The notes beneath the pieces were generated by a model. The model ran no database searches. It was not told where the DNA came from and was given only the letters and a program-made list of their open reading frames with translations. The position numbers and the translations under genes are program-made. DNA of 64,000 bases from Amoebophrya sp. A120 (taxonomy: Eukaryota; Protista; Dinoflagellata), in contig CAJINV010000004.1 in the NCBI GenBank assembly GCA_905178155.1, positions 1,240,881-1,304,880 on the forward strand, written 5' to 3'. Positions 1,007 through 34,060 of this stretch are shown in pieces. Position 1 is the first letter of the stretch. Each line of letters opens with the position of its first letter.

Positions 1007-4000
1007 CTAGCAACACCCCTCCAAACTGCCGATCTCCGAAGTTGGTGCGTTGCTTGCATGAACAAGGCCTCCAGACCCTTGGCCGCCCCGTATCCTGTGT
1101 AAAAGCGTCCCCACCTCCCCCTAGTCAAGTTGGGACGAGCTCTGCAACGCAACTCCCGAAGTTTGGGGAGTCAACAAGCATATAAAAAGTTTTTCTCTGT
1201 ATTGTAGTGCAGGTTGAGGTTATAGCAAGGACCGCCGGATCACAAAGCCAGCTCCTTATCCTCCTGTAACTGTTTACAGCATTACTACACATAGAATAAT
1301 TATCCAAAACACGACTGAATCAGCACGGCTCTCCTGGGCGATATGTGCAATTTTGTTACGACTCTTCCTGTAATAATTGCATCCAATCTGCGCGACTACA
1401 ACTCTGGGCTGGGAACGTTTTTGCTCAGGATACCGCCTCCGGGACCACGTTCGATGTCCTCGATGACAACCCCGGGTTTACGCGTCGACCCCGAATTGTC
1501 AATCCACGTGATCTATGAAGTGTAAAAATGTCTGGGTCTGGAAGAATCCAACTTGTCATGCTGATTTCGGATTCTAAAAAAATCTGTATTGCATGAGCAG
1601 CCAAGAGGATCCAAGTTTTGCTACACGGAAAGAGCATTTGTCATGCAGATTAGGCATCAGGAAGCCCTCTAAAAATCTGTGATGCTAGGGCATGCATCAC
1701 AGACATCAGGAGTCATGCAAAATGTGCATGACAAACCTGGCAATCTTCCAGACCCAGACATATTTGCATTTGATATGATCGGGGCTCGTGTCGTGCTCGA
1801 AGGTGGTGGGTTGTGATTGTCACCAGCAGCGCTCGCGGTCGTTGTTGTGCTAGAAGAAGAGGCGGGCCCAGAAGTTCTTGTACTGCCATTACCTCCATCC
1901 CCCGTGCTGGCCAGGAAAAACGGCCCCTTCCGCATTTGCTCCCGGGTCAGGAGCAAATCGCGCTCCAACAGTCTGCCGGAATCTTGCGCGGCTTCCAACA
2001 ACGCCTCCCATGCGTCCTGACCTTCGTCCCAACCCCCAGAGTTGGGCCACTGCCTGTTCTCCCCAACTGTCGGGTTGTCTCCGTAAACAAACCCCGACTT
2101 GTATCGCAAACACTGCGCCGTCTCGTGCCAAATGCAACCATTCGCATACTGTGTGGGAGACTGGTCGTTTTCCCACCACTTTCGCAGCACGTCATTCAAC
2201 CTCGTCCACTTTACCTTCGCGGAGAGAATTTCCTTGTTCCAGGTCCCGAGCAACACGTGGCCCACCGACGCGGACACGAAAAACGAGGGGGCGGAAGAGA
2301 GCGGGACAAGTGCGGTCAGCTCCCGGAGTTCGTCCAGGTACTGCTTTCCCCGTTGTTTCGCGTGGCCAACCTCTCCCCTCAAATTCTTCGACACCCCGTC
2401 CTTACCCATCAAATAGGTATCGTAGCCGTGCATCGCGACGAAGTGCCGCACCTTCACGTTGGCGAGGTTGTCGGTATTGCACACCTCGTTGCGGCTGTTC
2501 GGCAGGAAAAAGAGGGCGTTTTTCCGGGGGAAAAAGCACGTCCAAGAAGCAGGGGCGCCACCAGTTGCAGTAGTACTCGTTCCGCGCACATTTTCATGGT
2601 CACAGCCGGACTCGATTTTCGCATTCCAAACGGGCGCACCGACCATGTAATCCTGTTCCAGTCCGTTCGGAGCGTAAGTTGTTGTATCACCATAATTCTC
2701 GTCGTCCATTTCGAGTGGCGTGTTTGCCGCGAGCACTCTCGTGGCGCGCGCGTCGTTTTTCAAGTACCCCGGGGTTGCGAACGCCGCACTCGGGGGTCCA
2801 CGGACGTACCAGGCAGAGTCCTGCAGGATGCCGAATTTTTGGAACGGCACTTCGTGCAGGATTCTGTCCACCTCCGCCTCCGTTTCGAAGCCGCCCCGGG
2901 CGGTCGCGTCCTTTTTCTGCGCCAGAAACTGCAGGTTCAGCTCGTTGAAGACGTGGAAGACCGTGCAGGCCTGCAGCCCCGTGCCCGCCGCGCCGGCGGA
3001 ACTGCCGGCAAGGACGATTTCGAACGGTCGTTGCGCGAGCGTGAACGACGCACCAGGAAGTGCAAGGTCGTTCTGCGCCTTTTGTTGATCCACCACCTCC
3101 TGTCGGACGACAGCGTTCCGGATTGCGGTGGTCACCTGTTTGATAATTCGGTAGCCGTGGAAGAAGACGCCGTCACCCGTCGCGGCATCGGTATTGTAGT
3201 ACCCGACGTCGCTGTTCCCCGCCCACTTGTCACTGCTGCAGTAGGGGAAATACACCTTGTTAAAGTCGTATCCAGGAAAAAAACTGTGTAAGTGTAAGCT
3301 TCTTGGAGGAATAGCATCACAAGTTTGCTCTGCATGACACAGAAAACCTGTCATGCGTAGCTAGTACGTGAAAACATGCACGAAAATTGTCTCTGATGCA
3401 TGTCCAGCATGACAAGTGTAACAGTTTTGCATTTTCTGCAACACAAATTTACACTTACACAGTTTTTTTCTTGGATAAGTCGTGAAACACCAACTCGGTG
3501 TTCGTGGATCCGAGCAAGCGGTCGGCGTCGACGTCCATTTTGAAGCTTTCTCCGTATTACAATGAAAAATGCCCCCAGCCCAAACTTGGCAGCGTTTGTA
3601 TTGCAAACCTTTCCAATAGAAACATTCCCCGTCTTGCATATCTCAGCATCACGAATTTTCCATGCTGAATAGCTCAAATTTGTGTTGCGAAGGAGCCCAA
3701 CAGCAGGCGGATCTGTTTTGCACAAGGCACCTTGCGCACCTAGATTCTGCATCAGAAAGCCTCGCAATCCTTTCATGCAAGACAAAAAGCTTTCATTATG
3801 GAAACTTTGCATGCGAAACTTCTGCAAAGTCCGGGGTGAGCGCATTTTTCACTGTAATACTCCCTTCGACGACTTCAAGCCTTCGCTTCGGCCGTCTATC
3901 AAGTGCAAATATGTCTGGGTCTGGAAGAGTGTGGACTTGTCATGCAGGTTTTCCATGACCCATGAGGTCTGGTCTGGAATGCGGGACCTAGCATGACAGA

Positions 4001-5856: not shown

Positions 5857-8518
5857 TTAGCAACACCCACCGCCTCCCACTTCCCCCTCTCCTCCTGGCG
5901 GCCCCATGCGAGTCGGCTCCGCGGGGGCGTCGCTCGACTCAAAAATGGTTGTATTTCCTCCCGCTCCGCCCTGTTCTTTCGACACGCCGGAATTGGGAAT
6001 CCAAATCACCGGAGGCCGCTTGGGCTTGGTTGTAGCAGTACTTGCTCCTCCAAGATTAATCCCCAGCGTCGTCGTTGTTGAAGTTGTGGTCTTAGTGGTC
6101 GTTACAGTTGTGGTGCTCGTAGTCGTCGTAGTCGTCGTCGTGCTTGTAAATTGTTCCCGCATGCGCTTCTGCGCTTTTTGGAGCTTTTTTTCCTTCTGCT
6201 CGCTTGCATCGATTGCTGGAGCAAGGACTTCGTTTTTCCATTTCTCCTCCTGACACCTCGGCTCTTGCTCCGGAAGACCGCGGTTTTCCCCCAATGTTGG
6301 ATTGGCGCCGTACAGTCTCATCTGCGATGAGTGTGTGTCGGCTAGCATCAGACAGTCAACACAGTTCTCGTCGTTTTGAAACCAGAGACAGCTGTCGGCG
6401 TACTGTGTGGGGGCACCGTCGGTTTCCCACCAGTTGCGGACCACTTGATCTAGTGACTTGTCCATCACCTCTCCGTCCCACAATACCGTGCCGCCATACG
6501 CAGACAAGAATAACATTCCGGACGACGCGGACACGAAAAACGAGGGGGCGGAGGAGAGCGGGACGCTGGCTGTCAATGTTTTCATTTCGTCCAAAATTTG
6601 CCACCCCCGTTGTTTCCGTGGATTCAACTCAGTGGACGTCATTGGTTGCAGTGCATATTCCATTCCGACGTCATTGGTCCATATTTTATCGTCGTATCCA
6701 TGATTCAAAACGAAGTGCCGCACTTTCACCATGGCACTATTTTCCACGCCACACAATTTGTTCTCCTTGTCCGGCAAGAAAAAAAGCGCGTTTGTCCGCG
6801 GAAAAAAACACTGCCACGTATTTCCAGCCCCGACTTCTTGCGGACACCCCGATTCCAGCTTCGCGTTCCAAGCGCTTGCGCCGACCACAGCCTCCTCTTC
6901 TGCACCGCTCAACTTCTTGTTGCCCACTTGGGCAGTGACGAAAGGCAATAGCTCTTTGGCACGACTTATCAAATGCGAAAGTGTCTGGGTCTGGAAGGAT
7001 GGAACTTGCGATGCTTCCTGTGGGTCACACAAAAATCTGTGTTGCGTGATCACCAAAAGTTGTTTTTTTTTGACCAACACGAGCGGGAGTTTCTCATGCA
7101 GGATAGGCATGATAGACACTTCGCAGAATCTGTCATGGTAGGTCCTGTATTCCAGATGTCATGGGGTATTTTTGAAAATATGCATGACAAGTCTGCACTC
7201 TTCCAGACCCAGACATTTTTGCATTTGATATGACTGTCATTTTGCAACTCCTCCGGCGTTTCGTATTTTGCGGTTGGTGGCCCGCGCAACGACCAGCCAG
7301 AGTCCTGAAATATCCCGAACTTTCTAAATGGGGCTTGCGTGGTGAGAATTTGTTTCACATCATCGTCCGTCACCAACGGTCCCTGTTCTTGTTTTCCATG
7401 GACATTTGCCAAAAACCGCGTATTCAATTCGTTAAAAACGTGAAAGACCGTGCAGGCCTGCAGCCCCGCTCCGACGGCACCGCTAAGGGTCCCAGCAAGC
7501 ACAACTTCGTACGGCGTGCTTCTACGTTCCTCCTGCGATTGTACCTTGGCCCGCGTCTCCTCTATCACGTTGCGAACCGTGGTGGCCACTTGCTTCACGA
7601 TTCTGTGGCCGTGAAAGTAGATTCCATCGCTGAACCCTTTGTCAGTGTCCCCGGACCACTGGTCGCTGCTGCAGTACGAAAAGTGGATCCGGTTGAACGC
7701 CGAAAAAACGGTATCGTCATAACCTGGCTTGAACGGAGGGAAGAGCCAGAAGTGGTTGTTCCTGATTGTTCGCTCGTTGGAGCTCGTCGTCTTCACCGTG
7801 TAAGTTCGGGAATCTTTGTAGTTCTGAAGTGTGGGTGCGCTGCCGCCAGGCCAATCCAGATACAACAGCCACTTCCCGAGGCTGGAACCAATCCGAGCTT
7901 CAGATTCGAACGCACGGCAGGGATTCCAGTAAAACACGTAGTCACTGCCGTCGTTGCACTTCAATGCTGAGTTCTCGATGGAAAACGCATACAATTCGTT
8001 CTGCAGCCTGTCCCCGAGGCTGCCATCGTAAATCTCGGGATTGTTTTGTAACTGGATAGAGTATCACCAGGACGCAGTTTGATGGTCTTCGCGTCAGTTC
8101 CTTTATTTGTCGTCAGTGTAGCACGACTCGACGTAGTTCTTTGGCGCCCCTGCTGGTGCTGCTGCTCCTCTTGCTCTACTACTTTCTTCTCGTGCATACT
8201 AGCAGTCGCAGCAGCTTCCGCTTGTTCCGCCAAAAGCAAAGCACTTGAGGACCCGCTGCCACTTCGGGTGGTCCTCGTTTGCTCGGCATCGTCCCGCGTC
8301 TGGGTAGTTTCCCTTTCCTCCCATGGAGGCGACCGCGTGATTTTTCTCCTCATCTGGTCACGATGTCGCGCATTCTTCCTTGTTGTTTCACTGTTCACGA
8401 CCTTCAGCGACAACTGAAGCGTGGGCAGAAACAGGGAAAAATAGAGCGCTACTCGTCGAACGCTTCCGCTTAGCAACATGACGCTTGGAGGTAGAAGCGG
8501 ATTTTTAGTTGAGTTCAT
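5857..8518 (-). CDS. Notum / pectin-acetylesterase-like paralog 2 (probably catalytically dead; apparent frameshift near 8055)
   Basis: Collinear with paralog 1 (CNDGSDYVFYWNPC, YCSSDQW, CFFPR.NALFFLP, VPLSSAPSFFVSAS). GSSAG is replaced by GTLSG. One introner at 6967-7230. Confidence 0.72.
6967..7230. mobile_element. TIR introner family A (264 bp)
   Basis: Family A TIR; repeat CGACT/TGACT; restores QNDS(R/H)AKELL. Confidence 0.92.
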
Positions 8519-8752
8519 CCTGCAGAAGATTGCAACAGGAACGATTTTTGCACTGGTTTGGAAGGGCAGATTGGTGTACAACGGGGTCGTGGTCGTGCTT
8601 TTGCTAGTGCTGTTTCGCTAACTTTTACTTAAATAACTGACAGCAAAAACCGCAGTCTTGTGTCCGGGGAATAAAAAGATATGTGTACCTTAATACGGGG
8701 GTAGCTGTTCTTGTACGTAATTTGTAGAGTTTTGCCTGAGCGGACGAAAGTA

Positions 8753-11013
8753 CTGAAATAACATTGGACGACGACGACACGAGGTGAAATTTTGATCCTA
8801 GAGCAAACCTGCATTACAAATTTTGTCTCCCATGCAGAGCAAATTTGTCATGCATTTTATGAACTAGTGCGATGCTTTTGCAGTTCATAAGCTTCGAGGT
8901 CGCGCTGACGACGAATGTTCGCAGCAAGTTCCTTCACCCTTCGCGCGTGCTGGTGCTCCGACCGGTTCTCAGATTGGTCACGACTATGCACCCTGCCCCC
9001 CACAAGCTTTTCCGCCTCAACCACGAACGGCAGGTTGTGTGCTGTCAGTGTGGAAGCACAAAATCCGACGGCTGCTACGTCTCCATCCTCCAAATGCTGC
9101 GGCGGAATGAAATAAATCTCATCCCCCTCGGAGAACGTGGTAAACTCGCAAAATTCGGCTGTTTTCCAAAACAATGCGCCGCCATTCCGTACCCGCGTTT
9201 GCTCTTCTAAAAGTACGCCGCCAAGGAAGAAGGGCTGAAAGAACATTGGACGACGACGACACGAAGTGAAATTTTGATTTTCATCGTAGGGGTAGCGAGC
9301 GATAAACATCGACGCCGACACATACCACGACATCCATCGAGCCAGCATACATCTTCCCACCAAGCCACGAAGCTCTACCAGCCTCCGAGCAGACGCACGA
9401 GAAGGCGCGTCCAAAATCGGGGCGCAGTTGCTCCATCAGTAAGAAGCATCGGTGACCCGCCGCCGGCTGCCATAGTCTGGGCAAACCTCACTCCTTCCAG
9501 GTAGAGGCCGACCAGGGCCGGACAGCGGTGATTTTCGCTCGACACACGCTGGAGCAGCGACAGGAAAGTACTTGAGTGGAGAACTTGCACTTGACGACAA
9601 CGAAAGCAATACAACAATTTGATGGAGTTGCGGGCCGAAACGGAGTGAATCCCCTCCGAGCGAAAGAGTGATCCACAACGAACCGCCATAGTCCGGACTG
9701 GGGCGCCCTCGTCTGGGGTCCGTTGTTGGTGATTTAAAGCAGCCCTACCTCGGCGGAACACGCAACGACATCCACATCAACAGGCAACAACAGATAGAAG
9801 TGGGGCACGCAAAAGCACGGAGCGAACCAGCATGACCAAATGCCGTGCAGACGAGACCCGTCTCTCCTTGAAACCCTGGAGGCCAAGAACCTCGTAACCC
9901 CTCAAGAGGTACAGCAACATCGATGCAGAACAAGGGATACGAAGCAGCACCTACCGGCATTGTCACACATCCCCTTCCTACTACACCACTGCCCAACGGT
10001 ATTGATCAAGCGAGAACGCGACCACGAGGGGCAGGCGCTGGGGAGCAAGGAGCAGAGATTGCAGCACCGCGAGGAGGGATTGTTGGAATTCTCGTCATTT
10101 CGCGGAGGGTTCGCGAATTTCTTTTACGAGTTCCACAACATCGCCCCACTCCTTCAGCTTATCACTACAAGGCCGGCGCAGCGCGTTCTCGTCGGTAGCG
10201 ATCGAATAGCTGGCGTCGTCAAGGATCTCCTCCGGCAGACCGCGGAGGGCCGCAGTTGGTTCGTGCAGGTGGAGGCGATCCAGCAGGCACACGGCGAGAC
10301 GATTGACAAAGCACGACCACTCATTGTCAGCCTGATCTATTCGCCTTTTGGGGGCGATTCCGCACTCCCCATCCTGATATCTAGAATCGAAGCGGCAGCG
10401 GAGGAGGAGGCGACCACGCGTTTCCAGGACCGGCACAGGCAGACACGACGGGAAATCGCAGATGTCCAGCGGGAAATAGAAGTGTTGCGAAGCAGCAAGC
10501 GCGTAGGGGACACGGGAGGGACGCCGGACCATGGCGTAGACGACAGCCAGCCTACTACCATCTGGAACAGCGGACAGCTATATAGGACCCCGAGGTAGGA
10601 AGAACCGAGTCCGCGCAGCGGACCTAGAGCAACAGTGTGAAGCGGCAAGGAAAGTAGACCGCAGCCTCCCACCCGACCGCAGGTGACGGAAACACCAGAC
10701 ACAGCCCCCAGAAGCGCGTTTGCCTCCAGACACGACCGGGCGACTCTTTGATGCCGAGGGCGCAACCCGGAGACGCAGCGAAATTGGAGCACGCCGCTGG
10801 GTCTGAAGACGAGCGGCGGAGGCTATACGCCGGCGCACATTCCGGCTTGCCGGGTTACATCTTTAACCCCCAGATCCTGTAGCACCGTCGGGAAAAAGCA
10901 ACCGCAGACGAAAGCGGGGGAGATTAAACGCCGTAACCACGCGCGACAGCAGCAGTTCCTCTTCTTCTGAAATAACATTGGACGACGACGACGACACGAG
11001 GTGAAATTTTGAT
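8753..11013 (+). repeat. Three dispersed ~45-bp direct repeats (8753-8796, 9235-9278, 10967-11013)
   Basis: CTGAAA(T/G)AACATTGGACGACGACGACACGA(G/A)GTGAAATTTTGAT seen three times. Confidence 0.85.
9840..10598 (+). CDS. Hypothetical ORF with coiled-coil C-terminus, possibly part of a mobile element
   Basis: 252-aa ORF in a GC-rich block between repeat copies 2 and 3, on the opposite strand to all neighbouring genes; no recognised domain. Confidence 0.3.
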   Translation: MPCRRDPSLLETLEAKNLVTPQEVQQHRCRTRDTKQHLPALSHIPFLLHHCPTVLIKRERDHEGQALGSKEQRLQHREEGLLEFSSFRGGFANFFYEFHNIAPLLQLITTRPAQRVLVGSDRIAGVVKDLLRQTAEGRSWFVQVEAIQQAHGETIDKARPLIVSLIYSPFGGDSALPILISRIEAAAEEEATTRFQDRHRQTRREIADVQREIEVLRSSKRVGDTGGTPDHGVDDSQPTTIWNSGQLYRTPR

Positions 11014-11528: not shown

Positions 11529-14500
11529 TCAGGCTTTGTTTTGCTTTTTCTTTTTCCCCCCCTTTTTGAGTTCTTTCCTTTTGCTAGTGAGCAAGACCGC
11601 TTTGTCTACTTTGTCCTTCTCCGTTTTCTCGATTCTCTGCAGCAGGCGCTGGTGCTTCTTCGGCATCATCGCTTTTCTCCTCGCCAAGTCCTCCGCGGCT
11701 TCCCGTTCAGCCTTTGTCAGCTTCTTCTCGACAGGAGGCGCTGTACTAGTTGTGCCTGCAGCTGCAGCTGCTTTCTCTGCTGCTCCTGGTCCTGCTGTGT
11801 CGTCTTCATTTTTCAACATCATCTCTGAGCTTGCTGCTTCCGGTTTATTTGACGCTGCATCTTCAGCCTCCTCGTTCTCCTCTGCGCTTGTTGAGCTGCC
11901 ATCGTCCTCCGCATCATCATCGTCCTCTGCCTCCTTCTGCCTCGCGAACTCACTGGCCCAGACGCCCTTGGCTTCGGCCTGCAGTTCCTTCAGAAATTGT
12001 GCTTCGTGGTCTATTTCCTCGTCGTTCTTGTCAGCTGCATTGACGTTCTTCTCCGCGCCTGCGAAGGATGAACTGCTCGAAGATCCACCGCTGAGCAGTT
12101 TGTTCAAGATTTCCCGTCTCTCCGGCACGTAACCCTCCTCCTTGTCGTCCACAAAGGGGGACAAATGCGGCGGGCAGATTTTGTCCGGCAGGTAGGGATC
12201 CACCGGGAGTTTCAGGTTTTCGTTGAAGGAGTCCAGCACCCACTGCGGCTGCACGTATTCCCGCCCGGGGATTTGGGTGAACTGACTGGAGGGCCGGTCA
12301 ATGATCTGGTGCGTGATCTTCTTGTCGTTCTCCTTGAAGGGAGAGGCTGGGAGAAGCGACCAGCCGACCTGTGGGATTGGATTTCGGTTTTTTTTCACAT
12401 AGTGCATTTATATCCAGCAAACAAAACCAAAACACCTTTAGCTTTACTTCTTTTTTCCGTTTTCATCACTCTGTCTGTCATCATGCAAAAAAATTCCTCC
12501 ATCATTTCACAAGTATAGATACCTCCGCCCCACCGGACTTGAGCACAAAGTAGATGGAGTGGAAGGGCACTTCCCTTTGGATAAAAACCCGCATGCCGGA
12601 AAAGACGCCTTTAGAACTACTTGGCTGCTTCAGCAGCTGTAGTTGCTGAACTTCTTCGGATATCAAATGTAAAAATGTCTGGGTCTGGAAGAGTGCATGT
12701 TTGTCATGCTTGTCTGGCATGAGTCTTGAATCTGTCATGCACGTTACCCAAGAGCTCCATTTTTCTGCGATGCAGAACCGCAGTTTGTCATGCAGAATAG
12801 GCAACACCTAGAGGCTCAGGAACTTGTCATGCTGAGCCAGCCTTTGTGGCCCCATCATGAGACGCCACCCAGCATCACAAGTTTCCAGACCCAGACACTT
12901 TTACATTTGATATCGGACACGGCTGCGAAATCCTGGATTGTCGCCGCCTCCACCTCGCGCTTCTCGTTCTGTCGCTGCTCTTCGGTCTGCTGAACCTAAT
13001 GTATCAATATTTTTGCCATGTTGCACTCGCACGCTTCTTGCGCTAGTACATTATCTAGAAGTAAGAACTAGCATTCTTGTACAGGAGCAGTCTACCCCGC
13101 ACGTGTCAGTCGTTACTTATCTTCCTACAGGTGCAAAGATGTTGAAAATGGTTATTTTCTCTCATTAGTAGTGTGTGCAACTACAGGCTTCTTGTACTTC
13201 AATAGTAAATACCTTCTTCGAGTCCGCATTTTTGACGTAGAATTTCGCCATGTCTGCGGCATCCCGTTTGTAGTTGAATTTTGGTGGGTACTCAAATTTC
13301 GCCTCCGCGAAATATCAACTATAAAAATGTCTGGGTCTGGAATTGTCATGCTGATTTTGGATTCTAAAAAAATCTGTATTGCATGAGCAGGAAAGAGAGT
13401 CCAAGTTTCGCTACACGGAAAGAGCATTTGTCATGCGGTATAGGCATCAGGAAGCCCTCACAAAATCTGTGATGCTAGGGCATGCATCACAGGCATCAGG
13501 AGTCATGCAAAATGTGCATGACAACCCTGGCAATCTTCCAGACCCAGACATTTTTACATTTGATACGAAAAGCTTGAAGTTGATAAACTTCAGCATGGTG
13601 CGGTAGAATTCGTTGAAGGTGCCCATCACCTGTTTTTTGAATTTGAATAATTTTCCGGGTCTTTTCATCAAGATTTTTCTTGTCTTGTCGACTTCCCAGT
13701 CGTGCAAGATATAAATATTTATTTTTCCAAATGCGAACAACAGACCTGATGAACAGCACTCATTTTCTTGTCATGCTGCAAATGAGGCAAAGTAAGGAGA
13801 TGATTCCGATCATTTTTACTGCCACGAGCACAAACAGCAGAAAAACGAAGCAATTTATCATATCGTAAGTACCCGAAAGTCCACCTCGGCCGGCAGTTCC
13901 TGGGTGTACTTGTGCGGCACGAGCCAGGTGACGGTTTCCCCCTGGATGTCTGCTTGGAAGTAGTAGCCCTTGATGCTCGCAAAGCACTTCTTCAAAGACT
14001 TTGTCTGGATCACGTACAGGAAAAATTCGTGCACCAGCCTGGCACTCTCCTGCACCACGTCGCCACGGATTTCATTTTTCTGGTCGGTTGGCAGGCAGTC
14101 GTAGAGCGCGACCATGGAAAGCGAATCATCCAAATCCCGGATCGCGTCGCTGAAAGTCGGGTAGCGCTCGCGGACCTGTGGTATGGTGATGTTCGAAATT
14201 CTTGTCTTGATGTGTAATGCAGCATCACAAAGTACGTCGTTGGTTCCTCAACACACTACATCAGTATGCAATGCGAGTCGTGGTCTTCTTGCTCCTGCTC
14301 GATTCCATGACACATCGAAATCCCGTGCTGCAACCAAGGGAAATCGAAATGAAAATAAGTAAGTAAGCCCAAAATAAACCTTCGAGAATGAAAAAAATAC
14401 CAGATGATGCAGCGTGTATTCCGGTTTGTTTTCCTGCACCCGTTTCGCGGTGTTCTTATCCCCCCTCCCCAAACATTTTTTGTACTTCTTCATGTAGGTT

Positions 14501-15847: not shown

Positions 15848-18800
15848 CTATTCCAGCCTCAATTTTTCTCTCTTTTTCTGTTCCGCCTGCCCCGCTTTCA
15901 CGTGCTTCATCTTCCGGTTGTTCCTCGTGTGCGCGTCCCGCAAAGCCTGGATCTTCGCTTCCTTCGACGCCTTTTCCGCCCACTTCTGCTTCTTGTGGTC
16001 CTTGTTCTTCTTCACCTTGTCCTTCCGCACCACGTTTAACCGATCCAGTAACGACCGTTGCTTCCGCTCCTCGTCCGTCCGTATCACCGCCGTGACCGCC
16101 TTGTTGATCTTGCGCGACTCGGTGCCGGGCTTCGGCATGGATTTCTTGCTTTCGTTCTTCGGCACGGTTTTGAACGGTAGGTTCGCTTCGACGGACTTCG
16201 GGAGCTGGAGCTTGCTGAACTTCCGCCGCTGCCGGAGTAATTGCTTCCCGTACAGGCTGTCCTTCTTGTGCTGGATTTGCAGATTCTGCTCGAACCGCAG
16301 TTCGCCCGCGGACTTCATGCGCCGCCAGTCCTCGATGTCCAGCATCGGGTTGTAAAACTGCTTCGGCTCGACCTGATAGGATTTATAATTTGGAATGCAA
16401 GTGTTGCATTACAAATCTTGTTCCCAAGGCAAATCTGCATTACAAATCTTGTTTCTCATGCTGAGGAAATTTGGAATGCATTTATACGAGTACGATACTT
16501 TTGCAATTCAGAAGTCGTGTGGAAGATTCTTTTGAATCCTGCCACCTGGGACAAGTACATCATTCGTATCTATACAACTTGAGAATGAACCCAATACCGA
16601 GATCGCTGCTTGACATGCAAGGGACGATGGAGCAACGGAATAAATTAACAAATTGCGAATAGGAATAAAGTGCTGATGATATCTCTAAAAGCATGATTGA
16701 TAGTTGTACCTGCACCCAACTTTTGAGCAGGACCAAATCGCTCATGAGTAATCTGTCTTCGAACGTCGCCCGAAAATGTCCCTCCGTGCCTTCCGCCTTC
16801 TTGATCTCACCGCGGATCCCGGACACGGTTTGCAATTTTGCGTGTAATGCCTTGTTGCACTCCAAGTCTGAGTTGAACATATTTTTCACGAAGCACGTGT
16901 TTTTGAAAATCTTGTAGGGCTCGCCAGTCAATTTTAGCTTCTTCACGACTTGGAACCCCGTGTTCGACTCCAAAACGAGCCCAGTGGCTGACACGCGGTA
17001 GTTCGCGATGTTCTTCATGTTTTTCACGACAATGCAGCCCGTTTTCGGCGGCACCACCGGTCCGTAAAACGTCATGTGGCAGTGCATGTGCTCGGGGGTG
17101 TATTTTAGGAACTTCATGCGTTTCTCGTTCCGGTCTTCCAAGGAATACATCGGGAGCGTTTGAAACCGTCGCCACCCAATGGAGCAGAACACCGGATCGT
17201 TGGACTTCATCACCCGCGGCGCCCACCGGTGGTTCTTGATGCGCAACTGCATCACCCCCATCTTCAGTTCCCCCGGCAGGAGGCCGCCGACCACGATGGG
17301 TTTGTCGAGTGATAACGCTTCAACGGAGAGCTCGGGGACATTTTCCAATACAATTCGCACGTACGCGCCAATCGGGATGGCATCCTGGTGCTCTAGCATG
17401 TCGTTCGGGTTCAGTTTCTTCACGAGATTCCGTCGGCCAAATTCGTCCTGGTGCTCGGTGGAATTCGCTTTGGTGGACGAGGAGTTTGTTGTTCCAAGCC
17501 CGTTTTCTTCGTTTTCCTGCTTTTTCCGCATGATCCTATCCTTGCGTTCGCGGATCTCCTCGGCGGAGAGCTTGGAATAATCGACGTTGTCGTCGTCTAA
17601 GTTATGCATTGCAAATATGTCTGGGTCTGGACGAATGCACCCTTGTGATGCGCATTTCACAACACATAAAAATCTCTCATGCATAGGCAGCAAAAGCTGC
17701 CCGCTTTCTGTCACCAAAGTCGAGCATTTGTGACGCAGGTTCGGCATTGCGGAAGCTTCTCGAAGCCTGTGATGCTAGAGCTTCCATGCCAGACCTTCTG
17801 TGTCATGCAAAAGCAGCATGACTCTTCCAGACCCAGACACTTTTGCATTTGATATAAGTCGTCATCATTCAAATCCATGTCCACATCGCTATCGTTGTCT
17901 CCTTCGCCGGGTGCTCCTCCGTTTTTTCTCCTTATCCCGCCGTCAGCGTTCCAGTCGCCGGTGACAAACTTCGATTTTTTCAGCTCGGCACGAAGCTCCT
18001 CGTCGAAGAGCCAGCGCGCGTCTAAGGGCAAGGATTTCAACCGCCAGGAATCCAAGCCGTCGTCGACGATTTTACTAGAACTTGCATTTACCTTTACACC
18101 GTCACGACCTTTCGCGGAGCAGAGCATCAGTTCATCATTCTCATCTCCGTCCTCATCCGAGTCATCGGCGAAGAGGCTCAATTTCTTCGGCTTGCTTGGA
18201 TCCTCGTCCTGTTGGTCGGAAGCGGTAGATTTCGATTTGCTTTTGCTTTTAACAGATCCAGCTGAAGATGATGATGTCGCCAGAAAGGCAGCGTCTTGGA
18301 AATCGACGGTCCGCTTCGGACCATTTCCATTGGAAGAGGAACTGCTCCCGCCAGCCTGCAGGTTGCGCGCGTGTTGGGACCGGTACTGCTTCCCGTACAC
18401 GAGCTCCTCGAGCGGGATATCCTTCGCGAATCTTTGCTTGGCTTCCGCGAAAAACTGCTTTTTTGAGTTGTCGCGGGCGGTCTCCTCTTCACTGTCGTTT
18501 TCGTCCGCAGAAGATTCGGCGTCATTTTTGTCGGAATCGTCTTCTTCCTCCGAGCCCTCCTCTTCCTCGCCCGACGAGGTGCCATATTCTTGTTCCGAGT
18601 CGGAGTTTGTTCCAGATTTTATCTTCCACTCGTCTTTACCGTTTCCCTCCGCATCCCCCCCCTCGACAAAATCCGGGGCGACGCGGCGCCTCAAGCCGTT
18701 TGTGCTTTCTTTGTCTTTCCCCCCAGCAGCACTCTCGTTCGCCAACACTTTCCTCGCTTTGTCCGTGAGCCTCAGCTTGCTTCCGCTACCGACGTCATTC

Positions 18801-21299: not shown

Positions 21300-23468
21300 A
21301 CGACAAGTCCACTGTACTTAAAAGAGACACAGGCTTCTTCGAGACGAGGAAGTCCAAAGCCGCAGATACTACGTGTACGTACGAATGCAGTCTTGAGTCC
21401 AACGAGGAACGAATCATTTTTACGGAAATTTCTCCCTGGCGAGAAAACTTCTACTTCAAGCCAGTATGATGAGAGGAACAGTCACCAGCCTTACAGACCG
21501 ACGGCGGGGCATTGTAGTTGTAGCGCGTCGACTTCGGAAAGATCTACATACAATGTCGATGATGTATCAACTATCAAAATCCACTCCACTCCGTTTTTTA
21601 CTCGACCACACTTTCCGATACCTTCAGACGAGTAAAACTAATTTTCTTCAACGCAGTCATTGTTTCTTCCCGATCCCGACAGGCATTTCCAACATCGCTA
21701 TCACCGTGCTGGTATTGCACACAATCAGCCAATTTCGCGACCTGGTATCGCCCGATTATTCGCATTGGGTGGACGCCACGGTTCGTCCGGATGTCTTACC
21801 GTTGTAAGCCCCCGCAGAGTTTTCTCGCCGTACCACTTGTCGTGCTCTTCCTCTTGTGCTCGCTTCGCGTCCCACTGCGCCCCTGTCATTCCATCACGCA
21901 TGGCTGTTGGAGTCCCGCTCTCACCGGCGTTGTCACGTCCTTCATACGGCGAGTTAAACGCCGCCCCCGGCAGTCGTAGGCCAGGCGCGGAATTGGCGGA
22001 GGCGCTGCTAGGCGAACCGGAGCCGCTATGTGTGGTATCTGGCGCGAGCGATAAAATATGTTTAGAACCATCTCTAGGATTTCGCTTTCGTTACGTTCTC
22101 CATCATACTTGCGCAACACTTTGTCTTTGCATGCGGATGCGCAACTACATCGCTTTGCATAAAATAATTCAGTACCTGACGATCCAGTTCCACCTGCGGC
22201 CACGACATCGTGGAATGACGGGTCCGACTTCGCATGGTGATCATCATCTTGTCCGCCTAGCAGTGAAAGTTCTTCCACACGTGTGGTGCGGGAACGCCCA
22301 GGCAAAAATCTCGCCATCTGGCTTCTTGCTCGCGCCCATAGACCATTTCCTCCATCCGCCTTAGCCAGATAACTGTCACCTCGCTCGGGACCGGCGTCCT
22401 CGTCTATTGTGAGGAAAAATCCCCTTTCCGCATATCAGAATGGAAATTTGTGATCCTGGTCTGTGGTCACATTTCGCCTTTTTCTCGCCTATTGGATAAT
22501 GGGAGCAATATGGCGCATTCCAAAGCCAGTCTGTCACGCGCTTTTGACTACTGCAAACCTGTTTGCCAACATACCTAAGCACTAGCCTTCTGCATACCCA
22601 AACAGGCGTAAAGAATGCCGCCAAGCACTTTCCGCAAGACAGATCTGATTTGTCTACGGAACTCCAGCCTCAGAAACTTCGTCTTGATATGAGGAGGAGA
22701 GATTTTTCCTCACAATATCGTCTCGCTGTTGTACCTCGGCTGCTTCGACGTCGAGTTCCTGGTGCGATATCCCAGAAGACAAACCCTACCCGCCCCGCAA
22801 TCACGATATTTGTTCTCGTCATGCATCAACCATAGTCTTGATCTTGATGAAATACTTATAGTACTTCTAGAATCACCGTAGAAAAAAACGCAGAGTTGTT
22901 GAGACACGAGGCTTGCCTTTTTGATTGGGATATCGACATCACCATCTTGCTCTTCCGCGTTCTCGTGCTGCTTCGCGACGCCCGCGCTCGTCTTTTCATC
23001 CAACTGCTCCCCGTCGGCAGTGACAACCCGGCGGCGAGAAACTTCTTCCTCTTCGTCGCCCTTCGGTCCGGCTTCTGTATTGCGATTTTTGTTTTTCTTT
23101 TCTTATTTCGTGAACTAAATAAAAGTAGGTGGCGCATGAGGACAGCAGAAAAAGGAGAAGAACTCATTTTCATTTTCTCACTTCATCAACTTCTACGATT
23201 TCTTGTAAGTACCTGGTTTGTCTCCAGCAAAATAGAACTTCCGCGGTCTCAGATCCAGTTGGAGAAACTCCTCGCTGAGGCCCACCGGGGCGGCAGAGTC
23301 TGCGTCTTCCTTGTTTATTCCGTTCTGCAATTGCGGCTGCTGCTGCTGTTCTTGCTGCCCAACCGCTAACTGCTCCTCCGCGAAGACGGAAAAATTCAGG
23401 GAGACGAAGAACGCAACGACTACCCGGAGCTGCAGCCTGTTCTTGACGCAGAAGAATGGCGTTGACAT
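21300..23468 (-). CDS. Hypothetical multi-exon protein with N-terminal signal/anchor (3' end approximate)
   Basis: ATG at 23468 (MSTPFF...VVVAFFVSLNFSVFA); low-complexity acidic exons; frame EVQQRDEDAGPERG restored across introner 22405-22717. Downstream exons not resolved. Confidence 0.45.
22405..22717. mobile_element. TIR introner family E (313 bp)
   Basis: TATTGTGAGGAAAAATC...GATTTTTCCTCACAATA; repeat TCGTC. Confidence 0.88.
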
Positions 23469-28300: not shown

Positions 28301-30080
28301 CGTTGCAGACGTTCAGCTCCTCGCAATTGAAGCTTGCCTTGCTACAGCACAGGTTCAGTTTCGGTTGCCTGCGATCCAACGCGTAGAAGCGCGTGCCACA
28401 CTGGGCGCCCCACGTGATAAACCGGAGCGGCGGCTTCTCACCCGGCGATTTGACCTTTTCATGGTATTCGTTGAAGATAAAACGCCGACTTTCGAAATTT
28501 CTGTATGTAGAACATGCGCAGCCGCGCCGGGCTCAGATACACGAACATGCTCTTCCTGTGGCTGTGGTGCCATGTGCTATGCATAATGCATTTGTCCACT
28601 CTTGCCCTCCTGAAACTGAACCTCTATACCTTATAAAAATATCTCTGCTCCACTGCGTTTGCCGTCGATTCGGAGCGAATGCTCCGGTCGACCACATTAT
28701 TTCCCGGGTTGTTGTTCTGCTTGTACTTGAGCGTGTGGAAATTGATGATCTTCTCGGAACTGTCCACGACAGGCATCGCGGTGATCCCCCGAATCCCGAC
28801 GGCGCCCACGCTCAGCGCACTCTGCATCCCGGACACTTGCCACAGCGGTTTCTCTGTTTCATTTTGAACAAAATCTGTCTCGTCGTATAATTCTTCTAGT
28901 ACTTTTAGCATCCGTATTCTTTTTGTTACCAATGTCGGGATTGAAACATCATTCATCCTTTTTCAAATCGCTCGTTGCACATGAAACCCGCATCAACATT
29001 TCTACAGCTCTGAAAGTACAACAACTCCACACCAAAATAGTAACCCCGCCCTGCAAGAACTTCTACCTTTGATCACCACTCCGCGTCGCAGCCGTGCCAG
29101 GTCCCAGACGCAGAGTGTGTGACTTGCGTTTTTCTCGATGGAAATCAATTTGGAACCGTCGGCTACGAAGGCGACCTGCTCGATATCGGTGAGGTGGTAG
29201 AGGAAGGGACCGTAGCCCTTCTCGCGGCCAAAATCCTTGAAGACGACGAGTTCCGTAAACTCCTGATCTGCTTGTTTCACCCCGCCTGCGGCAATCAACG
29301 GCGTGGCAGAGGAGAGGGGAGCCTTTGGTTTTTTTCATCTCTTGTTCCTATATGTAAAGATCATCGCAATTTTTTGGTTCACAGGATAAAACTTCGTGTC
29401 ATGCTGCTCAGACATCAACACCGTCTACATGCGAGCCGCTCTTCTTCCTCACGAGAAGTTAGTTGATTCCTGTTCCTCGAAGTTCAACTAAAGTTCTATA
29501 CCGAGGTGTCCAAAAAGCTGGCTGAAGGCGAGAACCCCAGTGCGGCGACCGGCGACTGCAGATGCAGAAAGGCCTGGGATATGGGAGTGTCAGAATCGAA
29601 ATTGACAAAATCGAAAAATTTGCGATGCACAAAATCGATGTCAGTTGGAGCCTCAGTTTTCAAGTGGCGCATGACAAATTTCGGGAGCATCAAAATCCAG
29701 TCTGTCATGCTTTTTGGGGAAAGAAGGCTGCTCCTGTCATGCTACTGTGGCAGCACATTGCATACCCCTAAACAGGCTTACAATCGGCCTCATATGCCTG
29801 CTCCCCAATACAGGCCTTCAGTGCTCATGCTCTACATTTTAAGTATGCATGACAAGTTTTTCGATTTTGACGACTTCGATCCTGACACATCCATATGGGA
29901 GTCGTCTTCGATGTTGTGCACGACGACAACACTGGACGCCGCGTAAATGAGACTCTCCTCGAAGGGAAACACGCCAATGTCCGCGTTCCAGCCGGTGACT
30001 CGTTGCAGTGCCGGCGCAATGGCGCTAGTTTCCGTGGCCGCGGGCGCAGGAGACATTTCGATGTCCTGTTCCGCCGACAT
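25316..30080 (-). CDS. WD40-repeat protein, EML/CFAP52-like (multi-exon; internal boundaries approximate)
   Basis: LIYAASSVVVVHN, VAFVADGSKLISI...HTLCVWD, LRGHATAVTSLAFSDCGNFLLSGGYDG; one introner at 29580-29895. Confidence 0.7.
29580..29895. mobile_element. TIR introner family G (316 bp)
   Basis: TATGGGAGTGTCAGAATCGAAATTGACAAAATCGAAAAA / TTTTTCGATTTTGACGACTTCGATCCTGACACATCCATA (~40-bp TIR); repeat TGGGA; restores DDSQAFLHLQSPV. Confidence 0.88.
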
Positions 30081-31064
30081 CGTGGATGTATTGAAGTATT
30101 ACTTAGCCTATCCCTGTGTGCTTGTACTCTTGAAGACTTTCAAGGTTGTTGTTAGTTCCGTAAGAACACTAGTAGTTGTAACAGCTTAGTCAAAAAAAGA
30201 AAAACCTGCTGTCCAAGCACTAGAACCCGTACAACTACTGCACCAGACACGCCCAAACGACGCCACATTCTAGCTTTTTTGCAGCTGTTTCCCTCCACGC
30301 TTCTTTTTGCCATTTTGAGTAGAGAACGTTCCTCTCCTTTGTTTGAACTACGTGCGTCCATGACGATACTCTCCAGAAAGTGAAAAAACTCTCTTATATC
30401 GAATTTCCCGCTTCAACTTTCGCGATCAACAGCTACGGAAAAGCAAAAGGACCAAAGACGAAAATTTGAAAGAAAAACCGCCAATATGATGCAGTGCACG
30501 ATTTACCAGGTCGTGGTACCAAGCACGGTTAAAGTAGTGTATTAACCGCACGGCAAGAATAGGTTTGTCCTCGCGAACACCAAAATACAGATCTTGCCTG
30601 ATGTGCTTCTGAAATTTCTCCGTTTCCGACTTTTTTACTTCCTTATGACAGTCGTAGCATCCGATAAAGCGCATGAGGAGTCGCTACCGTGGTCACAACG
30701 CGCAGGGGATAGCTCGCCTGTGAAAGTCAACAGCTTCATCTACGCACTGTTTCATGAGGTTTGAAAAAATCGTCATGCTGTGTCGCTGAAAGAGAGGAAG
30801 CAATACTAGACAAGCCGCCGAACAAGCAGGGTCGTGTCGTACACGCCGCTGTGGAGGTCCTTCGCGGCATTTTTACCTGTCGTATGATATTTGTGACGTA
30901 GGTAGACACGATGCTTGCACCACTCACTGCTAAGCGTAGCAAGGCACGAGTAAGTTGTTTGCCCTGCATCAAACGTCGCAACGTTGACTTGTTTGACTTG
31001 ATGCAGTATACTGTAGACTACCGCAATAAAAATAAATCAACAGCACTTCTTTATTCAGCTATAC

Positions 31065-34060
31065 TCACTTTTTCTTCGTCATTTTCGCCTTTGCGTCTTG
31101 AATCATGCGTTCCTTTTGTATATGGATTGTAAAACTGTCTGGGTCTGGAAGGATGTGAACTTGTGATGCGCATTTCAGAACACAGACAAATCTCTCATGC
31201 ATAGGCAGCAAAAGATGTCCATTTCCTGTCACCAAAGTGGGGGATTTGTCATACGGAACAAGCAATGCGGAAGCTTCTCGAAATCTGTGATGCTAGGGCT
31301 TCCAGGAAAGATACCCTGTGTCCTGCAAAAACAGCATGACTCTTCCAGACCCACACATTTTTGCATTTGATATTGTATCAGATGCCCGGTTTCTTTCACC
31401 AAATCCAGAACCCGGTCGATGCACCCGGCCCAGTTGTTCAGTTTGTCCTCCGGCTTGGGCTCGTCCCCAAACCGCACCAGGCCGGCGGGTCGGTCGATCC
31501 GCGCGTGGATCATCTTGTCGATGACAAGTTCGGAAAGTTCGGTCTCCAGCTCGTTTTGGGTTAGGTGGAGCAGCTGCATCAGCCGCTTGGTTTCTATCCT
31601 GGTGTAGTAGAGGGACACGATCCGCAAGTTGTGCTGGATCACCCGCTTGCGCATCACGCTCCACCTCAGTTCGCCGAAGCTGGAGTCTGTGTTTTAGGAT
31701 TTTGCAGCAAGATTTTTGAATATGTTGCGCATCAGACAAACTGCCACTCGTCAGGTAGTTCAAATGGAAATCAAGACTATAACGACCGCGTTCTTTCCGG
31801 TCATGCTGCACAGGAAACTTGTTCGTTGTGGTCTCACTGTTGCAAAGAACGCGGGCGGCTCCCATTCAAAAAAATCCGATGGGTCTGCTAGTAACTAACA
31901 TCAATCGTATACTCAATAGTAAAAAAATACCGGTAAAGAGCGGGTGCTGCTTCAGTAAACTTTCAAATTTGAGTGGCCATGCGATCAACTTCGAAGTTCG
32001 GAACTGCTGCATCAAGTCCCTCAGTTTCTCGACCGCCTCCAACTTCTTTCTTGGTACTTCTTTCTCCAACAACGTTGTCATCAGCTCCGTCTGCTCGTCG
32101 GATTTTTTTGCCAACAGCACTAGTAACAGCAAGTGGGACAGGATCGGCTCCCATTTCGGTTGCTCCCCGTCTGCTATAATTTTTGTGGAGAGCGACTTCT
32201 GGTAGCACTTCGCGGCCTCGAGGTACTGCTCTTCGTGGAGGTAGTACTTGACCATGTTACTGTTAAACTCGAGTTTTATCTCTTGGAAATCGTCCGCCTC
32301 CAGAAACTTTTCGTTGATTTTCCTGGACGCAATCTGCACCCGGATGTAGTCCTTGCGAAGGAGCATCAGCCGCATTTGGTTCAAGATGTATTTTGCTTTC
32401 TCCATCTTGTCCATACTGCCGAAGGTCTCGACCTGATACAGTTTTTTTGCGAAGCTGTTTGCACGATATGCCAATTTTATTTTTTTTGCGAAGATTACTG
32501 ACAAAATGCTGCCGAATTGTACGTAATTCTATTTCCTTCTCCGCATGGTACAAATACAATCACAGTCATCACGTAGCTAATATTACTCTCTCTCTACCTA
32601 ATATCACCGATATTTCTTACCTGCACTTCCTGCAACAACTGCGCGGCTTCGTCCAATTTCCCCTCGGCTTCCCTGTCGTCCGCCAATATCCGGATTAACC
32701 TCGCCCGCTCCACTTCAACAAAGATTTTTCCCTCGGTGATACTGTCCAACACTTTCATCAACTCCTCCTTTTTCGGTTTGTTTTTTTCCTTCCCATATTC
32801 CTCTACCCACTTCATCCCCAGGTGCGTGAGGTCCACGATGCACCGCCGCAGCTGCCCGCGTTTTTTGCACAGAATCCCGAAGTATCAAATGCAAAAATGT
32901 CTGGGTCTGGAAAACTTGTGATGCTAAAATGTGAGTGGTGGGCGCACTGCAATACGCAGCCAAGCATGACAAATTTTTGAGCTGCTCTTGTGTTTCGTTT
33001 TCCGCATGGCAAACTGCGTTCTGCATGACAGACAAGAGGCCCTTTTCGTGCCTATGCAACACAGATTCTCGAGTCATACCAGACAAGCATGACAAACTTG
33101 CATTCTTCCAGACCCAGACATTTTTGCATTTGATACGAAGTAGTCCAGCATCTTGCCCCAGTCCTTCGCGTCGTCTTTGTACATGTATTACAATGAAAAA
33201 TGGCCCCACCCCAGAATTTGCAGAAGTTTGTCATGCAAAGTTTCCCAATGAAAGCTTTTTGTATTGCATGAAAGGACTGCGAGCCTTTCTGATGCAGAAT
33301 CTAGGTGCGCAAGGTGCCTTGTGCATAACAGATCCGGCTGCTGTTGGGCTCCTCCGCAACACAAATTTGAGCTGTTCAGCATGGAAAATTTGTGATGCTG
33401 AGATATGCAAGACGGGGAATGTTTCTATTGGAAAGGTTTGCAATACAAATGCTGCCAAGTGCAGGGGTGGGGGCATTTTTCCTTGTAATAACATGAGGAT
33501 CACCTTCTGGCAGAGCTTGCTGCAGTTGAGCGCGTCGCAGGCCTGGCGGCATTTTTTCTCCAGGAGCAAAATCTCCTCCACCGCGTCGTCGTACCGCTTC
33601 GCCTGGATCTGCTATCAAAAGGAAAAATCCCACCTCCCCATACCAAAACGAACTTTCTGATGCTGGATTTGGATACACAAATCGAGTTTGTGTTGCAGTA
33701 GAGGAATGCACGCAGATCCTGAGCCTCGGCGGGGGCCTTTTGGGGTAGGCGCCTAGCATGGTAGACGGCTACCCTGTAGGCCTTACAGCATTACAAAGCG
33801 CCAGCATAACGCGGCGGACAGCCTGAGTGTGCCTTCTTGCAAGACAGACCCGATTTGTGGTCACAAATCAGCAACACAAATTTTCGGATACATATCTTTT
33901 CGATATGGGAAGGGGGGATTTTTCCTTTTGATATCAGCTGGGGAATCTTCTTTTCCAGCAGCTCCTTCACTTCGGTTGTGTAGTCCTCCGTGGCCTTCGC
34001 ATCCTGCGTCAGGCTGTCCAAGCCCATGTGCAGGATCTGCGAAGTGTTCTCGTCCGTCAT
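31065..34060 (-). CDS. PSMD12: 26S proteasome regulatory subunit RPN5/PSMD12
   Basis: LLLEKKCRQ, KKRGQL, ITEGKIFVEVERARL, QVETFGSM, RVIQHNLRIVSLYYTRI, ARIDRPAG. Introners at 33613, 33186, 32883 and 31121; GT-AG introns 32433-32620 and 31687-31930. Confidence 0.96.
31121..31372. mobile_element. TIR introner family A (252 bp)
   Basis: Repeat TTGTA; restores GHLIQKERM; interior similar to 17603-17854. Confidence 0.93.
32883..33135. mobile_element. TIR introner family A (253 bp)
   Basis: Repeat CGAAG; restores LDYFGILCKKRGQL. Confidence 0.93.
33186..33490. mobile_element. TIR introner family C (305 bp)
   Basis: Repeat ACATG; restores VILMYKDDAKDW. Confidence 0.92.
33613..33933. mobile_element. 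TIR introner family E (321 bp)
   Basis: TATCAAAAGGAAAAATCCC TIR; repeat TCTGC/TCAGC; restores IPQ(L/Q)IQAKRYDDAVEE. Confidence 0.9.

What the first reader, a model, noticed from the sequence alone, without database searches (positions are those of the whole stretch)
3555..33490. Orientation independence: the same element occurs in both directions within minus-strand genes
Seen: family C 3555-3859 and 33186-33490 (both 305 bp) are near reverse complements. So are family A pairs 13313/46247, 12661/36689 and 3897/6967. All host genes are on the minus strand. Established: spliceosomal introns are polar (donor, branch point, acceptor). Inference: all required signals are symmetric and reside in the TIRs or in bidirectional internal motifs.
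Basis: partly seen in the sequence, partly recalled or inferred. Interest (0 to 1): 0.75.

Follow-up and report, generated by a model that had tools for sequence, protein, structure and literature searches.

The report
Transposon introns spliced either way round
Short transposon-like inserts in the genes of a marine parasite (Amoebophrya) are cut cleanly out of the RNA whichever way round they sit, likely because their mirror-image ends carry the cutting signals; the inserts themselves are already described, so this adds a property to a known element rather than a new system.

Summary
Observation confirmed. All four pairs are reverse complements (3555/33186: 92% overall, interiors 0.94 reversed vs 0.58 same way). 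They belong to 30 elements of 150-342 bp with TAT...ATA inverted ends and 5-bp direct repeats, in minus-strand genes. A window exon is 100% identical to an Amoebophrya A120 protein, and the ends match the introners of Farhat 2021. Spliced contigs (one study, two samples) drop element plus one repeat copy at 13 of 13 junctions whose size could be read, in both orientations in three families. In a relative's loci orientation is 79:83, the direct repeats show no base preference, and AG acceptors are rare. Mismatched repeats put the cut after repeat base 3 or 4; base 4 (donor N-TAT, like the canonical GTAT) is favoured, but one ortholog case points to base 3. No polar conservation or G-U bias was found. 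A bidirectional internal motif exists, but its 31-33 nt spacing looks like a DNA-binding site. Splicing efficiency by orientation and branch points could not be measured. Either-orientation introners are published for Polarella and Aureococcus; unbiased, GT/AG-free splicing in both orientations was not found in the papers searched.

The parts
3555..3859 (.). Family C element, 305 bp, TAT...ATA, repeat 4/5; in pectinacetylesterase-like gene 1 (minus)
   Evidence: RNA joint 3549>3860 skips 310 = 305+5, upstream repeat base 1 kept
33186..33490 (.). Family C element, 305 bp, opposite orientation to 3555; in RPN5 (minus)
   Evidence: removal read from contig length: 162 nt for 177 exon nt over three junctions
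13313..13565 (.). Family A1 element, orientation F; in Pescadillo
   Evidence: RNA joint 13307>13566 skips 258 = 253+5 in 4 of 4 runs
46247..46533 (.). Family A1 element, orientation R
   Evidence: X4 record 15 pieces 46534-47250 and 45765-46241 adjoin (717/718): skip 292 = 287+5
12661..12912 (.). Family A2 element, orientation F; in Pescadillo
   Evidence: RNA joint 12655>12913 skips 257 = 252+5 in 3 of 4 runs
36689..36943 (.). Family A2 element, orientation R; in nucleotide-sugar transporter; repeat mismatch at base 5
   Evidence: no RNA row shown; annotated protein P0001 and two orthologs read the downstream copy
3897..4162 (.). Family A1 element, orientation R
   Evidence: RNA joint 3891>4163 skips 271 = 266+5
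6967..7230 (.). Family A1 element, orientation F; repeat mismatch at base 5
   Evidence: RNA joint 6962>7232 skips 269 = 264+5, downstream base 5 kept
1514..1775 (.). Family A1 element, orientation F
   Evidence: RNA joint 1508>1776 skips 267 = 262+5
3269..3477 (.). Family F element, 209 bp
   Evidence: RNA joint 3262>3477 skips 214 = 209+5
17603..17854 (.). Family A1 element, orientation F; in BMS1
   Evidence: RNA joint 17597>17855 skips 257 = 252+5 in 4 of 4 runs
29580..29895 (.). Family H element, 316 bp
   Evidence: RNA joint 29574>29896 skips 321 = 316+5 in X3 and X4, depth 0 in DNA run X1
32883..33135 (.). Family A2 element, orientation R; in RPN5
   Evidence: length bookkeeping of X3 record 10
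33613..33933 (.). Family D element; in RPN5; repeat mismatch at base 3
   Evidence: X3 and X4 pieces run through the upstream repeat copy with 0 other letters, so upstream base 3 is kept
31121..31372 (.). Family A1 element, orientation F; in RPN5
   Evidence: RNA piece stops at 31373 with 49 nt left; size of skip not shown
45441..45764 (.). Family D element, same orientation as 33613
   Evidence: RNA piece stops at 45765
36369..36624 (.). Family A1 element, orientation R
   Evidence: absent from annotated protein P0001
37975..38227 (.). Family A1 element, orientation F
   Evidence: absent from P0001
38253..38514 (.). Family A1 element, orientation R; outer base of the sense 3' end changed (ATA to ATG)
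   Evidence: absent from P0001
38553..38831 (.). Family E element; repeat mismatch at base 2
   Evidence: P0001 and ortholog P0003 read the upstream copy (Pro)
34873..35137 (.). Family E element, opposite to 38553
   Evidence: P0001 reads into it, orthologs resemble the spliced form
35195..35411 (.). Family F element, same orientation as 3269
41483..41804 (.). Family D element
41852..42113 (.). Family A1 element, orientation F
45132..45387 (.). Family A2 element, orientation R
47362..47567 (.). Family F-like element, orientation not assigned
47618..47767 (.). Family G element, 150 bp
50772..51041 (.). Family A1 element, orientation R
22405..22717 (.). Family D-like element, orientation not assigned
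1091..1432 (.). Family E element, repeat 3/5, opposite to 38553 (weak score)
   Evidence: the RNA piece beside joint 1508>1776 is 76 nt, ending at this element's edge (inferred)

Best explanation
These are Amoebophrya A120-type introners, short elements with TAT...ATA inverted ends and a 5-bp flanking repeat that are removed from the RNA together with one repeat copy in either orientation, likely because the inverted ends are predicted to pair into a stem that marks both cuts for what is likely a modified spliceosome. Shown: structure, both orientations, exact removal, no GT/AG requirement. Inferred: a transposase acting in trans inserted them blind to gene direction; the intron starts one base before the 5' TAT (N-TAT mimics the local donor GTAT) and ends four bases after the 3' ATA, the 3' cut being set by distance from the stem rather than by AG; the internal GCAWNACA repeats serve transposition, not splicing.
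For: Removal of element+5 at 13 of 13 junctions whose size could be read (9 joint rows, 1 pair of adjoining pieces, 3 by summed length), both orientations in families A1, A2 and C. The same contigs skip canonical introns, while DNA run X1 runs through them and lacks joint 29574>29896. Orientation 79:83 among 162 assigned copies. Repeat bases match codon-position expectation; with the cut after base 4, AG ends 19 of 205 and GT starts 59 of 205. Both family C copies fold end to end as sense RNA, z -7.3 and -7.9, 0 of 100 shuffles as good; sense folds better than antisense in 13 of 29. Cut after base 3 or 4: RNA keeps upstream bases 1 and 3 and downstream base 5; orthologs agree at bases 2 and 5. 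For base 4: 8 of 8 canonical donors start GTA, 5 GTAT; all 9 top A120 non-canonical pairs in Farhat Table S4 start N-T; phase would then be 0 in 95 of 193. Farhat: U2, U4, U5, U6 found in A120, U1 not.
Against: No direct sign that RNA pairing is selected: G-U 29 vs A-C 18 in the first 25 pairs, p 0.14; a stem is automatic for any TIR element. At the one base-4 mismatch with an ortholog (L129), the A120 protein has the downstream copy's residue (K), which fits a cut after base 3 or an exonic K-to-R change. The cut constraints come from different families, so a cut tied to element orientation is not formally excluded. Farhat's placements may be aligner-made and the figure legend calls the sites variable. 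No lariat, branch point, efficiency or transposase data. RNA evidence is contigs from one study (two samples), labelled RNA by guess.
Confidence: 0.58

Rival explanations
1. Same elements, but removed by a non-spliceosomal, hairpin-guided cut-and-ligate system, as proposed for euglenid nonconventional introns.
For: No AG or GT needed; strong end-to-end stem in both orientations; U1 not detected in A120; Euglena work argues that inverted repeats drive splicing by non-spliceosomal factors (PMC12501133 Discussion).
Against: N-TAT matches the local canonical donor GTAT/GTAC; the outer T never changed at 139 sense 5' ends against 4 of 142 at 3' ends (p 0.12, weak); most spliceosome parts are present; a tunicate with TIR-derived non-canonical introns uses the U2 spliceosome.
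Confidence: 0.25
2. A spliceosome reads ordinary polar signals that the element carries twice: the internal GCAWNACA motif is the branch point, and one sense copy always lies 35-50 nt before the 3' end.
For: Motif at 15.8 per kb in elements vs 0.54 outside, 64 sense and 63 antisense; a sense copy lies 34-52 nt from the 3' end in 19 of 30 elements; present in 4 of 8 canonical introns.
Against: 11 of 30 lack a copy there, including removed elements 3269, 6967, 29580 and 33613; spacing is 31-33 nt, three DNA helix turns, in 36 of 72 gaps and 161 of 420; no extra conservation at the sense 3' side.
Confidence: 0.12
3. The elements are excised from DNA in a somatic or stage-specific genome (as ciliate IESs are), so orientation does not matter.
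For: Exact removal leaving one repeat copy is what DNA excision can give; runs X3-X6 are only guessed to be RNA.
Against: Those contigs also skip GT-AG introns; DNA run X1 runs into element ends at even depth 39-46 and shows depth 0 for joint 29574>29896 (only the top 15 joint rows were shown); Farhat counted the introns from RNA-seq.
Confidence: 0.04

Closest known systems
Amoebophrya A120 introner elements (Farhat et al. 2021, PMC7789003)
   Same: Same organism by a 100% identical protein; ends TAT + 7 variable + A-run; 3-5 nt direct repeats; non-canonical borders; many families.
   Different: In the sections and supplement text read, orientation of introners is not treated and the border is left as unknown or variable; here both orientations are removed, with element+5 each time and the cut narrowed to base 3 or 4.
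Either-orientation introner classes of Polarella glacialis and Aureococcus anophagefferens (Roy et al. preprint 10.1101/2020.10.14.339549; Huff 2016 seen only through it)
   Same: TIR/TSD elements that make introns in either orientation.
   Different: Those recruit G-starting donors and AG acceptors from TIR or TSD, and the classes named there were biased to one orientation; here no base preference, AG rare, 79:83.
Euglenid nonconventional introns (PMC12501133, PMC11282704)
   Same: Non-canonical borders, direct repeats at the borders, inverted ends that pair, MITE origin proposed.
   Different: CAG/CTG signature at +4-6/-8-6 there, TAT/ATA here; inverted repeats tested by mutagenesis there, untested here.
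Fritillaria borealis MITE-derived non-canonical introns (seen through PMC11282704 and 10.1101/2025.08.15.670264)
   Same: TIR-derived borders handled without GT-AG.
   Different: Preferred AG-AC/AG-AT ends and a shown U2-spliceosome role there; ends here are taken from a random 5-bp repeat.

Membership tests
Amoebophrya A120 introner elements | Inverted ends start TAT, seven variable bases, then three or more A | tested here: met
   TAT 29/29 at 5' and 28/29 at 3'; A at positions 11-13 in 27-29 of 29; definition
Amoebophrya A120 introner elements | Direct repeats of 3-5 nt at the borders | tested here: met
   5-bp repeats, 5/5 in 20, 4/5 in 9, 3/5 in 1 of 30
Amoebophrya A120 introner elements | Removed from transcripts with non-canonical borders | tested here: met
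   13 of 13 readable junctions; borders not GT-AG
Amoebophrya A120 introner elements | Occurs in A120 | tested here: met
   exon 36945-37589 is 100% identical to P0001, named Amoebophrya sp. A120 by its sources
MITE (non-autonomous TIR DNA transposon) | Short, TIRs, fixed-length target duplication, many dispersed copies | tested here: met
   30 copies in the window, 273 in related loci
MITE (non-autonomous TIR DNA transposon) | Mobilised by a transposase of a cognate autonomous element | tested here: inconclusive
   six longer copies had stop-free stretches of 85-151 aa, not searched against families; no whole genome held
Polarella/Aureococcus either-orientation introners | Introns formed in either orientation | tested here: met
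Polarella/Aureococcus either-orientation introners | Canonical-type donor and AG acceptor supplied by TIR and TSD | tested here: not met
   GT-AG at most 7 of 205 for any cut position
U2 spliceosomal intron | GT/GC donor and AG acceptor | tested here: not met
U2 spliceosomal intron | Lariat with branch adenosine; snRNP dependence | not testable with these tools
   only assembled contigs covered the window; the raw-read run laid gave 12 reads
Euglenid nonconventional introns | Stem joining the intron ends | tested here: met
   predicted only:
Euglenid nonconventional introns | CAG/CTG signature near the ends | tested here: not met
   ends are TAT/ATA; signature

The most novel reading that the evidence does not exclude
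Amoebophrya A120 has a splicing route that needs no fixed base at either splice site: it reads only the TIR (a T-A-T next to a stem) and measures the two cuts from it, so any TAT...ATA transposon becomes a seamless intron at any sequence, in any frame and in either direction. The scarcity of repeat mismatches at bases 3-4 (base 1 vs base 4: 14 vs 2) may even mean that the 3' cut is chosen by matching the intron's last bases to the upstream exon's end.
Probability: 0.35. Interest if true: 0.75.

Novelty: new variant of a known kind. Interest (0 to 1): 0.42.

Why it matters
How Amoebophrya removes tens of thousands of introns without GT-AG ends, and apparently without U1, is open. Equal occurrence and exact removal in both orientations, at target sites with no base preference, confines the needed signals to the symmetric parts of the element and gives a simple test (invert, break and repair the stem, scramble the interior). 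It would also explain the invasion: every insertion in a coding exon is repaired at RNA level with no change to the protein. The elements and either-orientation introners are both known, so the gain is a sharper constraint, not a new system.

Tried and rejected
Symmetric cut leaving 3 extra bases (N-TAT...ATA-N): rejected, every readable skip is element+5. Palindromic interiors as the cause of the reverse matches: rejected, self-reverse scores are negative in 29 of 30. Polar conservation: Fisher p 1e-4 on column counts in one subfamily did not survive label permutation over 137 copies in 7 groups (p 0.26; sub-ranges 0.31-0.75). G-U bias in stems: none. Lack of A at repeat base 3 in the window (1 of 29): not seen in 193 related copies (59 vs 54 expected). 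The U-run at the 3' end as a pyrimidine tract: unlikely, canonical 3' ends here are A-rich. Phase test (19 of 29) used two wrong hand labels and is void; corrected 16 of 29, p 0.013. Viral contigs: 2 loci with a 22-nt match only, taken as chance. Rfam: 0 matches. Ortholog search for the second base-4 mismatch (L032): no hit. Earlier scan findings: none in 3 look-ups. No whole genome held. Huff 2016 not held.

Full report
Observation. Self-comparison of the window and global alignment confirm all four pairs as reverse complements: 3555-3859/33186-33490 at 282/306, 13313/46247 at 0.78, 12661/36689 at 0.89 and 3897/6967 at 0.77, against 0.60-0.65 the same way round. With 45 nt trimmed from each end the interiors align only reversed (0.94, 0.76, 0.86, 0.73; 150 shuffles score -129 on average, -46 at best), and interiors are not palindromes (self-reverse score negative in 29 of 30). 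Host genes are on the minus strand by Pfam hits (two pectinacetylesterase-like genes, Pescadillo, BMS1, RPN5, nucleotide-sugar transporter; 10 of 28 ORFs tested had a hit), by canonical introns (8 of 9 skipped stretches tested read GT-AG on minus) and by a codon model (29 of 29, partly circular).

Anatomy. Scans for inverted ends with flanking repeats give 30 elements of 150-342 bp, picked by hand from those candidate lists, with TAT...ATA ends and a 5-bp direct repeat (5/5 in 20, 4/5 in 9, 3/5 in 1). Both ends share one consensus: TAT, variable positions 4-10, then an A-run (29 elements, 1091 left out). In sense orientation family A1 has 7 copies one way and 5 the other, A2 1 and 3, C 1 and 1, E 1 and 2; the three assigned D and two assigned F copies lie the same way. 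An internal motif GCAWNACA occurs 64 times sense and 63 antisense (15.8 per kb, 0.54 outside), spaced 31-33 nt in 36 of 72 gaps.

Identity. Exon 36945-37589 is 100% identical to P0001, named Amoebophrya sp. A120 by its sources. Farhat et al. 2021 (PMC7789003; I read the outline, passages, sections 10, 11, 12 and 16, and supplement passages with legends and rows of Tables S4 and S7; figures not seen) describe A120 introners with TAT ends, seven variable bases, an A-run and 3-5 nt direct repeats, 29,850 copies, U1 not detected, and borders left unknown or variable. The window's elements meet that description.

Removal from RNA. Eleven runs were listed. X3-X6 are contigs labelled RNA by guess, from one study and two samples; they skip GT-AG introns, whereas DNA run X1 reads through them. 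In 1300-18300 all 8 elements are skipped by their length plus 5. In 29300-48000 (tables cut to the best-supported rows) 29580 is skipped by 321 = 316+5 with depth 0 in X1; 46247 by 292 = 287+5 from adjoining pieces; and the three RPN5 elements 33613, 33186 and 32883 together leave 162 nt for 177 exon nt, which is 3 x 5 less (the sum is shown, not each junction). Both orientations are removed in A1 (1514, 6967, 13313, 17603 vs 3897, 46247), A2 (12661 vs 32883) and C (3555 vs 33186). For 36689 the support is the annotated protein and two orthologs. Efficiency could not be measured: contigs give none, and raw-read run X9 laid 12 reads.

Larger sample. I dropped 14 (over 400 bp or repeat under 4/5); of 259, the codon model called strand in 205 and frame in 193, and 51 of 52 loci with two or more calls were single-stranded. 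Of 205, 162 could be assigned a family and orientation: A1 37:39, A2 11:14, E 7:8, G 9:10, H 5:1, F 6:3, D 3:6, C 1:2; total 79:83. Repeat bases follow codon-position expectation, and GT-AG arises in at most 7 of 205 for any cut position. These copies have no RNA evidence; that they are spliced is inferred from open frames after removal.

Where the cut lies. Mismatched repeats show which copy reaches the mRNA: upstream base 1 (3555) and base 3 (33613) and downstream base 5 (6967) in RNA, upstream base 2 (38553) and downstream base 5 (36689) by annotation and orthologs. If one rule holds, the cut is after base 3 or 4. Base 4 is favoured because the intron would start N-TAT, like the local donors (8 of 8 GTA, 5 GTAT, 2 GTAC), because all 9 top A120 non-canonical pairs in Table S4 start N-T (placement may be aligner-made), and because phase would be 0 in 95 of 193 and 16 of 29 in the window. 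Against: at L129 the A120 ortholog has the downstream copy's residue at base 4. I put base 4 at about 65%, base 3 at 25%, variable at 10% (judgement). The constraints come from different families, so polarity by transcript rather than by element is inferred.

Mechanism. Insertion by a transposase in trans, blind to gene direction, is inferred from TIRs, the fixed repeat length and the even orientation; none was found. Both family C copies fold end to end as sense RNA (z -7.3, -7.9) and sense and antisense fold alike, so a stem is available either way, but there is no G-U bias (29 vs 18, p 0.14) and no polar conservation to show that it is used. I favour a modified spliceosome guided by the ends (0.58) over a non-spliceosomal hairpin route (0.25), a doubled internal branch point (0.12) and DNA excision (0.04). 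Reading the 31-33 nt spacing as three helix turns of a DNA-binding array rests on general knowledge, not on a call.

Literature. Either-orientation introners are reported for several Polarella classes and Aureococcus, with a bias to one orientation and G-starting donors and AG acceptors (Roy preprint 10.1101/2020.10.14.339549, passages; Huff 2016 not held). PMC9860276 (passages) allows opposite-orientation matches in its method; PMC12130899 (passages) lists A120 introners, one family with TIRs and LTR-like coding; PMC11282704 (passages), the tunicate preprint 10.1101/2025.08.15.670264 (passages), PMC8469720 (passages) and PMC12501133 (passages and Discussion) give the analogues. Seven searches found no statement on orientation of Amoebophrya introners; subscription papers, figures and the datasets of the introner surveys were not seen and may hold it.

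Verdict. A real feature of a known element family. The added facts are unbiased orientation, exact removal both ways and no base requirement at the target. Interest 0.42.

Noticed in passing
window elements and loci L001-L144: The 5-bp repeat is centred on a codon in 95 of 193 related copies and 16 of 29 window copies, in both orientations, although its bases show no preference; unexplained phase bias.
   Followed up: partly
window elements and loci L001-L144: Repeat mismatches by sense position are 14, 11, 5, 2, 10; base 1 vs base 4 (same codon position) p 0.004, base 2 vs base 4 p 0.02, uncorrected. Could reflect a matching constraint at the 3' cut or hairpin-templated mutation of the intronic copy.
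   Followed up: partly
window 16405-16518: Stretch inside a canonical GT-AG intron of BMS1 resembling family G element 47612-47726 reversed (76%); 4 of 8 canonical introns carry the internal motif, so some may be decayed introners.
   Followed up: no
window 34873-35137: The public protein P0001 reads into this element, while orthologs P0002 and P0003 resemble the spliced form; probably an annotation miss.
   Followed up: partly
window 57471-57747: Decayed family E copy with a damaged right end in a region with no obvious coding frame.
   Followed up: no
window 1400-8350: Two adjacent pectinacetylesterase-like paralogs carry elements at different positions, which suggests insertion after the duplication.
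   Followed up: no
window 8753-8796, 9235-9278, 10967-11013: A 44-nt sequence repeated three times at 90-95%, ending in TTTCAG on the minus strand; role unknown.
   Followed up: no
window 39343-39399: 57-nt near-perfect palindrome between genes.
   Followed up: no
window 61745-62779: 345-aa minus-strand ORF with a weak P-loop (AAA_16) match, E 4e-4, below cut-off, next to a GC-rich stretch at 63000-64000.
   Followed up: no
L063:3001-3972, L039:3315-3945, L075:4772-5919, L038:571-1051: Longer copies with element ends and extra interior sequence; longest stop-free stretch 85-149 aa; not searched for transposase.
   Followed up: partly
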